NCBI GenBank assembly: GCA_964016885.1
Contig: OZ024753.1
Coordinates: 33,728,001-33,792,000 of the forward strand
Length of the DNA stretch: 64,000 bases
Direction: 5' to 3'
Source: Eledone cirrhosa
Taxonomy: Eukaryota
How positions within the stretch are numbered: position 1 is the first letter of the stretch; each line of letters starts with the position of its first letter. Both the position numbers and the translations under genes were made by a program. Shown here piece by piece: positions 51,974-61,366 of the stretch. The notes beneath the pieces were generated by a model that was given only the letters and a program-made list of their open reading frames with translations, was not told the origin of the DNA and made no database searches.

Positions 51974-52024
51974 AGATTCCTGATGATTTCTAATGAATGA
52001 AACAGTTCTAGTCCTGTAGAATCT
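51974..52024 (+). ncRNA. Type I hammerhead ribozyme with true helix III
   Basis: agattc-CTGATGA-t-ttc(taat)gaa-t-GAAA-cag(ttctagtc)ctg-TA-gaatct. All three helices pair. Confidence 0.88.
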
Positions 52025-52571
52025 CATCTATATACATATATATATATACATATATATATACATATATATATATATATATACATATATATATATATACATA
52101 TATATATATATATATACATATATATATATATATACATATATATATATATATATATACATATATATATATACATATACATATATATATATACATATACATA
52201 TATATATATATACATATATATATATACATATACATATATATATATATATATACATATATATATATACATATATATATATACATATACATATATATATATA
52301 TATATACATATATATATATACATATACATATACATATATACATATATATATACATATACATATATATATATACATATATACATATATATATACATATACA
52401 TATATATATATATACATATATACATATATATATACATATACATATATATATATATACATATATACATATATATATATATATACATATATACATATATATA
52501 TATATACATATATACATATATATATATATATATACATATATATATATACATATACATATATATATACATAT

Positions 52572-53165
52572 GGTGGCTGCCAACTCGTTTTCGAGTACGG
52601 CCACTACTTTATATCCATATAGGAGAACCCTTACCGATGCACTGAACGAGTGTGACCTTTTAGTCCAGCCAGCGACTTGAAAACTCTGGTACAAACACTA
52701 CACTTGTGACAAATATTGACACATAGTGCTGGGGCCATGGTACCCTGTGACGACAAGTGCAGAGAGATCTCCAGATATAAAGCAATGCCTGTGCCGTGAA
52801 GCTTTTATAGTGAGCAAAGGCACTGCACAAAGCCAGTCCCACTCTCTTAACCAAGATGATATTTACCAAAAAGAAGAACAAGTCAACATCATTGGATACC
52901 ATCAGAGTTGCAGGTGTTATATCAGAGTTTTCCTTCTCCTAGAATTCTGCCTTGAAAAAGGCTAAGGGGTCATCTCTCCCGGTGATTTTGGATGGCCATT
53001 GACTCTTAAGAGCTCCTTTGCCCTTTGACAGGTCTTGTTTTTAGTCCTGCAGGATGTCCAAAGTCACCCTCCTCACCAAGAAACCTTGGTGGGGTTGCCA
53101 GTTTAGTCGCCAACGACCCGACCATGGGACAGGTTGTACTGGGATACATGTTACCAGTAGCACCA
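52572..53165 (-). mobile_element. Bipartite RTE-derived non-autonomous element (5' leader fused to ORF C-terminal C2H2 finger and 3' tail)
   Basis: Minus strand has an RTE-like leader motif ctaggagaaggaaaactctga, a C2H2 finger at 52708->52631 ([25 protein letters not shown]) and a tail hairpin actcg-aaaa-cgagt. Confidence 0.75.
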
Positions 53166-58335: not shown

Positions 58336-59351
58336 ATATATATATATATATATACATATATATATATACATATATATATACATATATATATATATACATA
58401 TATATATACATATATATATATATATACATATATATATATATATACATATATATATATATATACATATATATATATATATACATATATATATATATACATA
58501 TATATATATATACATATATATATATATATACATATATATATATATATACATATATATATATATACATATATATACATATATATATATATATACATATATA
58601 TATATATACATATATATATATATACATATATATATATATATATATACATATATATATATACATATATATATACATATATACATATACATATATATATATA
58701 TACATATACATATATATATATATATACATATATATATATATATACATATATATATATATATACATATATATATATATATACATATATATATATATACATA
58801 TATATATACATATATATATACATATATATATATATATACATATATATATATATATACATATATATATACATATATATATATATACATATATATATACATA
58901 TATATATATATATACATATATATATATATATACATATATATATACATATATATATATATATACATATATATATATATATACATATATATATATATATACA
59001 TATATATATATATACATATATATATATATATACATATATATATATATATACATATATATATATATACATATATATATATATATACATATATATATATATA
59101 CATATATATATATATATACATATATACATATATATACATATATATATATACATATATATATACATACATATATATATATATATACATATATATATACATA
59201 TATATATATATATATACATATATATATACATATATATATATATATATACATATATATATACATATATATATATATATACATATATATATACATATATATA
59301 TATATATATACATATATATATACATATATATATATATATACATATATATAT
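58336..59351. repeat. Interrupted (TA)n microsatellite
   Basis: Direct reading. Confidence 0.97.
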
Positions 59352-61366
59352 AAATATAAGTATGTACACGTACATACATATATGTATACCGACGTACAGT
59401 AGTATGTATATATATATATACATACATGCACACATATATATATGCACGTATGGATTCACCGAACATTTATTATAATGCTCGGTGTGTTTGTAAACAAACA
59501 TCCCGTATTAAGCCGTAGTGTCTAGCAACCACCGTTGCTCGTTTGTTCAACACTGACAAGGAACGCTGTACTAGTTTCAAGCTTGTTAGCTATCGTCAGC
59601 AACGTATACCTTCCTGCCAGATTGTTGAACGTATATACTTACCTTATGCATATTAACGGCTGAGTAGCCCAATATGCATATCGAGTGGGTTAATCGGCCG
59701 GGTGCACCGAAAACGATAAACGGAAAAAATGAAACGATATTTCATTTCCCACTCTTAGTACGGCTGTTACTTAAATATAAGTATGTACACGTACATACAT
59801 ATATGTATACCGACGTACAGTAGTATGTATATATATATATACATACATGCACACATATATATATGCACGTATGGATTCACCGAACATTTATTATAATGCT
59901 CGGTGTGTTTGTAAACAAACATCCCGTATTAAGCCGTAGTGTCTAGCAACCACCGTTGCTCGTTTGTTCAACACTGACAAAGGAACGCTGTACTAGTTTC
60001 AAGCTTGTTAGCTATCGTCAGCAACGTATACCTTCCTGCCAGATTGTTGAACGTATATACTTACCTTATGCATATTAACGGCTGAGTAGCCCAATATGCA
60101 TATCGAGTGGGTTAATCGGCCGGGTGCACCGAAAACGATAAACGGAAAAAATGAAACGATATTTCATTTCCCACTCTTAGTACGGCTGTTACTTAAATAT
60201 AAGTATGTACACGTACATACATATATGTATACCGACGTACAGTAGTATGTATATATATATATACATACATGCACACATATATATATGGTGGTTGCTAGAC
60301 ACTACGGCTTAATACGGGATGTTTGTTTACAAACACACCGAGCATTATAATAAATGTTCGGTGAATCCATACGTGCATATATATATGTGTGCATGTATGT
60401 ATATATATATATACATACTACTGTACGTCGGTATACATATATGTATGTACGTGTACATACTTATATTTAAGTAACAGCCGTACTAAGAGTGGGAAATGAA
60501 ATATCGTTTCATTTTTTCCGTTTATCGTTTTCGGTGCACCCGGCCGATTAACCCACTCGATATGCATATTGGGCTACTCAGCCGTTAATATGCATAAGGT
60601 AAGTATATACGTTCAACAATCTGGCAGGAAGGTATACGTTGCTGACGATAGCTAACAAGCTTGAAACTAGTACAGCGTTCCTTTGTCAGTGTTGAACAAA
60701 CGAGCAACGGTGGTTGCTAGACACTACGGCTTAATACGGGATGTTTGTTTACAAACACACCGAGCATTATAATAAATGTTCGGTGAATCCATACGTGCAT
60801 ATATATATGTGTGCATGTATGTATATATATATATACATACTACTGTACGTCGGTATACATATATGTATGTACGTGTACATACTTATATTTAAGTAACAGC
60901 CGTACTAAGAGTGGGAAATGAAATATCGTTTCATTTTTTCCGTTTATCGTTTTCGGTGCACCCGGCCGATTAACCCACTCGATATGCATATTGGGCTACT
61001 CAGCCGTTAATATGCATAAGGTAAGTATATACGTTCAACAATCTGGCAGGAAGGTATACGTTGCTGACGATAGCTAACAAGCTTGAAACTAGTACAGCGT
61101 TCCTTTGTCAGTGTTGAACAAACGAGCAACGGTGGTTGCTAGACACTACGGCTTAATACGGGATGTTTGTTTACAAACACACCGAGCATTATAATAAATG
61201 TTCGGTGAATCCATACGTGCATATATATATGTGTGCATGTATGTATATATATATATACATACTACTGTACGTCGGTATACATATATGTATGTACGTGTAC
61301 ATACTTATATTTAAGTAACAGCCGTACTAAGAGTGGGAAATGAAATATCGTTTCATTTTTTCCGTT
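59352..61366. mobile_element. Retrozyme-like tandem array B: 422-bp HHR-bearing unit, ~2.2 units (-) joined head-to-head at ~60287 to ~2.6 units (+)
   Basis: Near-identical units. HHRs at 59563-59605(-), 59985-60027(-), 60636-60678(+) and 61058-61100(+). Both ends in (TA)n. Confidence 0.9.
60636..60678 (+). ncRNA. Type I hammerhead ribozyme (array B representative)
   Basis: acgttg-CTGACGA-t-agct(aaca)agct-t-GAAA-ctag-TA-cagcgt. Helix I is extended by ctggca/tgtcag and gttcaaca/tgttgaac. Confidence 0.9.

What the first reader, a model, noticed from the sequence alone, without database searches (positions are those of the whole stretch)
51974..61100. Non-canonical U-U pair at the base of helix II (positions 10.1/11.1) conserved across three unrelated HHR families
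Seen: CUGAUGA-U-uucu/agaa-U-GAAA (array A), CUGACGA-U-agcu/agcu-U-GAAA (array B) and CUGAUGA-U-uuc/gaa-U-GAAA (51974; the 20388 fragment keeps the 3' U). The helices co-vary while the U-U is retained, and all would cleave at GUA. Established: the canonical HHR has a purine-pyrimidine pair (usually G10.1-C11.1) here. Inference: a natural core variant under selection that strict descriptor searches would miss.
Basis: partly seen in the sequence, partly recalled or inferred. Interest (0 to 1): 0.75.

Follow-up and report, generated by a model that had tools for sequence, protein, structure and literature searches.

The report
U·U hammerheads of Hydra-type mobile elements
Three repeat families in this animal genome carry hammerhead-ribozyme sequences with a U·U mismatch where a base pair usually sits; this variant is already published and is common in one retrotransposon clade, and here it is likely an inherited, tolerated weakening rather than a new motif.

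Summary
In detail: all 16 complete hammerhead (HHR) cores at 51974-61100 have U at 10.1 and 11.1, and an Rfam model aligns them to that pair. Arrays A (310 nt) and B (422 nt) are non-LTR retrozymes; the 51974 copy is the pseudo-LTR ribozyme of a young Hydra-clade Penelope-like element (9 of 9 intact 713-aa copies carry it). U·U is not new: it is reported in PMC3088659, in about 60,000 axolotl retrozymes shown to cleave (PMC7229834), and stands in 14 of 25 Hydra-clade families in a published table (PMC8557442), found by RNAmotif. Genome-wide about 66,000 U·U cores outnumber about 28,000 G-C cores. U·U is held across diverged subfamilies (97 of 100 listed C copies, 19 different loops), but relatives amplified with A-U (22% of family A), G-C, C·A and A·A, so the slot is relaxed, not U·U-specific. 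A and C share the same helix II, so 'unrelated' is too strong. More interesting side result: 17 of 18 two-block A insertions have the Hydra element's own anatomy (inverted blocks, two fixed ends, (TA)n target). Cleavage and expression were not tested.

The parts
51866..52033 (+). Solo pseudo-LTR fragment of a Hydra-clade Penelope-like element (family C), ending in (TA)n 15 nt after the predicted cleavage site
   Evidence: 98.2% over 168 nt to the 5' end of intact element L125; intact copies have this HHR 175 nt before a 713-aa ORF
51974..52024 (+). Family C type I hammerhead: 6-bp helix I, U10.1 (51987)·U11.1 (51998), 3-bp helix II with tetraloop, 4-bp helix III, GUA site after 52018
54843..55284 (-). 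Array A inverted block (about 1.4 units, one HHR core at 55002); outer end at the monomer's internal AT tract, in (TA)n
55282..58335 (+). Array A direct block, 9.8 x 310 nt, 10 HHR cores with U·U; 3-nt microhomology with the inverted block
55333..55389 (+). First array A hammerhead: helix I with UAU internal loop, U10.1 (55356)·U11.1 (55369), palindromic 2-bp helix III (ACGCGU), site after 55379
59351..60287 (-). Array B inverted block, 2.2 x 422 nt, HHR cores at 60021 and 59599
60287..61369 (+). Array B direct block, 2.6 x 422 nt, HHR cores at 60642 and 61064 (U10.1 60649, U11.1 60662; palindromic helix III ACUAGU), ending in (TA)n
20383..20422 (-). 5'-truncated family C hammerhead (U11.1, GAAA, helix III, GUA only)
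1109..1178 (+). Canonical G10.1-C11.1 hammerhead of another family (long helix II, AUU site): in-window counter-example
   Evidence: z -3.92; like cores listed

Best explanation
These are type I hammerhead sequences of two non-LTR retrozyme families (A, B) and of a Hydra-clade Penelope-like element (C), and the U·U at 10.1/11.1 is a published variant that is likely inherited from that clade and tolerated because it likely slows but does not stop self-cleavage. Shown here: the motifs, their register, their copy numbers, covariation of the flanking helices, the link of C to an intact RT + GIY-YIG ORF, and the insertion anatomy. Inferred from published homologues: array transcripts self-cleave after GUA, weakly as monomers and better as dimers (helix III is 2 bp with a palindromic loop), giving unit-length RNAs that circularise. 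Inferred: U·U holds the same slot as G-C, stacked on the A9·G12 pair, with loss of the G10.1 N7 metal contact (recalled, no call) made up by loop 1-loop 2 contacts in A and B. Inferred: the Hydra protein nicks (TA)n, starts reverse transcription at two fixed internal sites of the retrozyme RNA, runs round the circle (or along a multimer) to give tandem blocks, and the two oppositely primed blocks are joined by microhomology. The slot changes state between subfamilies (U·U, A-U, G-C, G·U, C·A, A·A) and is nearly fixed within each.
For: Prior art: natural U10.1-U11.1, best of the mispairs; axolotl HHR_Amex2 with U·U cleaves 22% in 1 h as monomer, much better as dimer, and forms circRNA; 14 of 25 Hydra-clade families in File S2 have U...U (my count). 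C is Hydra-type: RWR, DKT, CxCX5C, CxxC and CxH motifs in the 713-aa ORF; 9 of 9 fetched intact copies have the U·U HHR at -175. Fold under selection: 90.4% of cells paired, 13 of 16 pairs with two-sided changes, 0 of 500 shuffles as high on covariation, while 10.1/11.1 is unpaired in 10 of 17 distinct rows (rows chosen by me to span states). Relaxed slot: family A 14,195 with U10.1 and 4,042 without, 100 of 100 listed A-U, monomers 99% identical; B (U·U) and D (G-C) are homologous outside the HHR (66-70%); E (C·A) is 80-94% like B and F (A·A) about 70-80%. Anatomy.
Against: No cleavage or expression data for these sequences. Nearest-neighbour folding does not favour the catalytic fold for A or C: z near 0, and in U·U variants of A the segment from U10.1 is predicted to pair with the GAAA box (P about 0.8; at most 0.06 in A-U variants). 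HHR mutants did not impair insertion by an anole PLE in vitro, so copy number does not prove activity. A and B share nothing with the PLE outside the HHR core, so inheritance of U·U from the PLE is not shown; the tree of the B clan leaves the order of states unresolved. U·U is far commoner than any other mispair, which pure tolerance does not fully explain.
Confidence: 0.65

Rival explanations
1. U·U (and the other mispairs) is positively selected as a brake: a slower ribozyme, in A and C aided by a competing pairing of U10.1-C10.4 with the GAAA box, spares circles and multimeric templates from cleavage and so raises transposition.
For: U·U cores about 66,000 against about 28,000 G-C (patterns differ in tightness); U·U kept over 19 loops in C and across three phyla in Hydra elements; predicted competing fold switched by U10.1 alone; PMC7229834 argues circles must be protected from their own HHR.
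Against: The A-U subfamily of A, with the predicted fast fold, reached 4,042 copies at the same age; G-C family D forms arrays of 30 units; B has no competing fold.
Confidence: 0.2
2. The ribozymes are largely inactive or beside the point; U·U is uniform only because a few master copies amplified recently, or because the PLE protein reads this sequence.
For: Copies in arrays are 99-100% identical; HHR activity dispensable in vitro for one PLE; weak predicted folds; insertion ends lie 140-170 nt away from the cleavage site.
Against: Catalytic core invariant and helices I and II covary across families only 65-75% alike; U·U homologue cleaves in vitro.
Confidence: 0.1
3. The two Us are extra core nucleotides (between A9 and 10.1, and between 11.1 and G12), not a pair; the next Watson-Crick pair is the true 10.1-11.1.
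For: An extra nucleotide between 9 and 10.1 is common in PLE hammerheads; family F would then begin with a canonical G-C; the Hydra table writes the Us into the core columns.
Against: Spacing from core to loop 2 is identical in U·U, A-U and G-C relatives in a gap-free alignment; a single U-to-A change gives a normal A-U pair; Rfam HH9 puts them at the first pair.
Confidence: 0.05

Closest known systems
Axolotl retrozyme Rtz_353 / HHR_Amex2 (PMC7229834)
   Same: Type I HHR in a 300-450 nt tandem repeat, U·U at the base of helix II, 2-bp helix III, tens of thousands of copies, coexisting with a canonical family.
   Different: Here the U·U type is the majority and has A-U, C·A and A·A sister subfamilies; arrays are built of two inverted blocks in (TA)n (the word 'inverted' does not occur in that paper's main text). 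Activity and circRNA shown there, not here.
Hydra-clade Penelope-like elements and their HHRs (PMC8557442)
   Same: Short single ORF with C-terminal GIY-YIG, RW(K/R), DKT, CxCX5C, (TA)n target; HHR with U...U, 3-4 bp stem II and tetraloop in 14 of 25 families.
   Different: The tabulated cephalopod family Hydra-1_oBim has a different, non-U·U HHR; family C has an 8-nt loop III. The paper calls these HHRs canonical and does not comment on U·U in the section read.
Natural U10.1-U11.1 core variant (PMC3088659)
   Same: Same positions and bases; called surprising but the best-tolerated mispair.
   Different: A rare variant there; its host could not be read from Fig. S6.
Anole Poseidon PLE PAc (PMC11167929)
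   Same: Two internal RT start sites that bound a 'tail', AT-rich target, insertion ends on those sites: matches the two fixed ends of A, B, D and C.
   Different: Other PLE clade; shown in vitro for an autonomous element, not for a retrozyme.

Membership tests
Type I hammerhead ribozyme | Core C3-U4-G5-A6-N7-G8-A9, G12-A13-A14, A15.1-U16.1, H17 | tested here: met
   16 of 16 window copies; invariant columns in A1
Type I hammerhead ribozyme | Three helices round the core, helix I open, with covariation | tested here: met
   C fold can be drawn at -5.9 kcal/mol but is not the MFE (-8.3)
Type I hammerhead ribozyme | Purine-pyrimidine pair at 10.1-11.1 (usual, not obligatory) | tested here: not met
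   U·U; accepted natural exception
Type I hammerhead ribozyme | Rfam model at gathering score | tested here: not met
   0 hits; HH9 15.8 (A), 19.2 (B), 23.0 (A-U), 38.6 (G-C relative) against 52: the canonical relative fails too
Type I hammerhead ribozyme | Self-cleavage after NUH | not testable with these tools
   needs transcription assay
Non-LTR retrozyme (A, B) | Non-coding tandem units of about 150-450 nt with one type I HHR each, dispersed over many loci | tested here: met
   B2 and D units reach 466-500 nt
Non-LTR retrozyme (A, B) | Expressed as linear and circular RNA | tested here: inconclusive
   the run search could not address expression
Hydra-clade PLE (C) | Single ORF under 3 kb, RT then C-terminal GIY-YIG | tested here: met
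   713 aa in 9 of 9 fetched loci; GIY-YIG only weakly by Pfam (E 0.00022 on the domain, below cut-off)
Hydra-clade PLE (C) | RWK, DKT, CxCX5C linker, CxxC and CxH motifs | tested here: met
   read by eye (RWR instead of RWK)
Hydra-clade PLE (C) | (TA)n target, inverted 5'-truncated copies, HHR in pLTR | tested here: met
Hydra-clade PLE (C) | Placement in the RT phylogeny | not tested
   no tree with reference Hydra proteins was built

The most novel reading that the evidence does not exclude
U·U is a Hydra-clade birthmark and brake: the retrozymes took their ribozyme from Hydra-type PLEs and are copied by them through rolling-circle reverse transcription primed twice at two fixed internal sites, and this one genome holds a natural allelic series at the hammerhead's most conserved pair (U·U, A-U, G-C, G·U, C·A, A·A), with functional C·A and A·A families and mispairs outnumbering canonical pairs about 2 to 1.
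Probability: 0.3. Interest if true: 0.62.

Novelty: new member of a known kind. Interest (0 to 1): 0.3.

Why it matters
The U·U itself changes nothing: it is published and shown to cleave. What the follow-up adds is usable. First, isogenic natural pairs (A with U·U or A-U at 99% identity; B, D, E, F) let one ask whether ribozyme speed sets retrozyme success. Second, retrozyme insertions share the exact anatomy of a young, intact PLE in the same genome, which is more direct evidence for the proposed PLE mobilisation (preprint) than co-occurrence, and names a protein and template for an in vitro test. Third, HHR censuses that require a pair at 10.1-11.1 would miss most cores in such a genome.

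Tried and rejected
DNA search of G000 with the A core gave nothing because common words are skipped; patterns were used instead. Run search: no RNA holder listed; laying four contig runs gave no variant tables and no information on expression. Rfam at gathering score: 0; at E 10 over 51900-61400 the 150 rows shown were nearly all AT-repeat miRNA models, 77 rows not shown. Pfam: nothing on RT pieces, weak GIY-YIG only; no PDB sequence match. Folding z-scores do not single out the U·U HHRs. Trees: the B-clan tree (34 rows, one per locus and state, two test positions masked) clusters states by family but leaves their order open, with long branches; the A tree (13 rows) has no supported branch, only the 95% outlier L076 is U·U. 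Rejected: three independent origins (A and C share helix II); U·U as obligatory (A-U subfamily); assembly error (tens of thousands of copies, published homologues). Earlier scan notes: none. Supplement of PMC7229834 could not be read and bioRxiv supplements are closed; they may list cephalopod retrozymes, further mispairs or inverted arrays. Ruffner 1990 was not seen, only cited.

Full report
Observation. The window holds 16 complete U...U hammerhead cores between 51974 and 61100: one solo (C, core 51980), eleven in the 310-nt array A (ten +, one -) and four in the 422-nt array B (two +, two -). All have GUA at the site. None arose in 200 resampled windows. The Rfam HH9 model, though far below its gathering score, aligns the two Us with the first pair of helix II. 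A gap-free alignment of 18 HHRs that I picked to span the families shows the same spacing for U·U, A-U and G-C relatives; helices are 90.4% paired with 13 of 16 pairs showing two-sided changes, whereas 10.1/11.1 is unpaired in 10 of 17 distinct rows. A canonical G-C hammerhead also lies in the window near 1119.

What the families are. The window is in a 3.0-Gb animal assembly (organism not told). A and B are dispersed tandem repeats with one type I HHR per unit, a UAU internal loop in helix I, a 6-nt loop 2 and a 2-bp palindromic helix III: the canonical metazoan retrozyme build described in PMC4209133 (passages) and PMC7229834 (passages and sections 15, 17). C is different: 51866-52033 is 98% identical to the 5' end of an element with a 713-aa ORF. 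A protein search scored 150 of 70,550 candidates, all 94-100% identical; I fetched 9 with long open frames and 9 of 9 have the full ORF and the U·U HHR 175 nt upstream. The protein has RWR, DKT, CxCX5C, GIY-YIG, CxxC and CxH, the marks of the Hydra clade (PMC8557442 section 11); Pfam support is weak and no RT tree was built.

Are they unrelated? Outside the ribozyme A, B and C share nothing detectable. Inside it, A and C match at 25 of 28 nt and have the same UUC/GAA stem, so they are not clearly independent; A and B differ by two compensated pairs.

Is U·U conserved? Whole-genome pattern counts: U...U with 2-nt loop III 43,450 (control 0); family C with both positions free 23,851, of which 97 of the 100 listed are U·U across 19 loop sequences (hand count; 29 of 30 fetched loci); G...C cores of any helix length 8-30 nt 30,224 (control 2,164). 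So U·U (about 66,000) is likely the majority type, about 2 to 1, with the caveat that patterns differ and tandem units are not independent. B1 and B2 keep U·U at about 75% identity. But the slot is not U·U-specific. In family A 4,042 of 18,237 cores lack U10.1, and 100 of 100 listed are A-U, in at least 12 loci, at 99% identity to U·U units. Family D, homologous to B over 180-250 nt, has G-C. With a purine at 11.1 there are 2,473 matches (control 66): mostly an older B-like subfamily E with C·A and a GUU site (77 of 100 listed among 1,181 non-U B-type cores, hand count) and a family F with A·A (about 14 of the 100 listed), both homologous to B and with helix I largely intact. States cluster by family on a tree (9 changes against 22.3 shuffled), order unresolved. 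Only the first 100 matches of each search, all on contig C1, were visible.

Prior art. PMC3088659 (passages, sections 8 and 13, Fig. S6 text) reports natural U10.1-U11.1 and cites Ruffner 1990 (not seen) for U·U being the most active mispair; its filter rejected such mispairs unless activity was measured. PMC7229834 reports about 60,000 axolotl HHR_Amex2 with U·U, found by RNAmotif, 22% cleaved in an hour as monomer, better as dimer, with circRNA in tissue. File S2 of PMC8557442 lists 25 Hydra-clade families; by my count 14 have U...U (Hydra, sea cucumber, copepod) and one Chara PLE has C...A. A search for 'U10.1' found only PMC3088659; searches joining hammerhead or retrozyme with octopus found no paper on such elements. 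I saw no natural A·A in what I read, a narrow search. PMC6155905 was seen as passages only. Rfam misses these HHRs, but also the G-C relative (38.6 of 52 bits), so U·U costs score (15.8 against 23.0 for A-U, which also differs by one loop base) without being the sole cause.

Insertion anatomy. Of 19 family A loci mapped (picked from listings, mostly where both strands showed), 18 have an inverted block followed by a direct block; in 17 of these one outer end lies at monomer position about 200-210 and the other at 226-231, in (TA)n, while the inner junction falls anywhere, often with 1-6 nt of microhomology. In the unselected listings 9 of 10 and 8 of 11 complete loci show the minus-then-plus order and none the reverse. 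B and D show two end sites as well in the few loci that mapped cleanly, and the PLE itself ends 15-22 or 91-94 nt past its cleavage site, one of each in three inverted pairs. This matches the PLE hallmarks of inverted 5'-truncated copy, tail and (TA)n target and the two internal RT start sites of PMC11167929 (part 2 of 4 read). PLE mobilisation of retrozymes was proposed from co-occurrence and from phylogeny (bioRxiv 2026.07.22.740005, part 1 and passages); neither main text describes inverted arrays by word search.

Mechanism and doubts. Most likely the ribozymes cleave, slowly and best as dimers, to release units that circularise and are copied by the Hydra protein; U·U is a tolerated, inherited state. 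Against: nothing here shows cleavage or expression; folding predicts that U10.1 in A diverts helix II into pairing with GAAA (P about 0.8 against at most 0.06 for A-U), which may be a brake, a defect, or an artefact of ignoring tertiary contacts; and one PLE inserts without HHR activity in vitro.

Verdict. Real, correctly read, already known in kind. New members, with a useful allelic series and a clear PLE signature. Interest 0.3.

Noticed in passing
window 54843-58335 and 59351-61369; L074-L078, L090, L092, L134-L144: Retrozyme insertions are an inverted block plus a direct block with two fixed outer ends in (TA)n (17 of 18 two-block A loci), the same anatomy as the Hydra PLE: direct hint of PLE-driven, twice-primed rolling-circle insertion.
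   Followed up: partly
L093-L099, L111 (family E); L100-L107, L112 (family F); L109: Amplified B-related families with C·A (GUU site) and A·A (GUU site) at 10.1/11.1; L109 is a further family with C·A and GUC. Activity unknown.
   Followed up: partly
L125:1370-3511 and eight other loci: Young Hydra-clade PLE family with many intact 713-aa copies, apparently distinct from the tabulated Hydra-1_oBim; candidate helper of the retrozymes.
   Followed up: partly
window 55282-55284; L143: In 2 of 36 A junction ends the block stops at monomer position 59-62, at the predicted cleavage site; about 0.5 expected by chance (P about 0.08, by hand), so only a hint of cleaved templates.
   Followed up: no
window 51944-51975: A TATA-like box lies about 30 nt before helix I of the family C HHR, so transcription may start at the ribozyme; untested.
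   Followed up: no
window 1109-1178: Canonical G-C hammerhead with long helix II and AUU site, of a further repeat family (similar cores).
   Followed up: partly
window 23606-23977: 203-nt duplicated unit with tRNA-like A and B box sequences by eye, probably a tRNA-derived SINE.
   Followed up: no
window 39551-43627: Homogeneous 22-nt minisatellite, 185 copies, 96% matches.
   Followed up: no
window 52574-53165: About 590 nt of non-repetitive sequence between (TA)n tracts, not identified.
   Followed up: no
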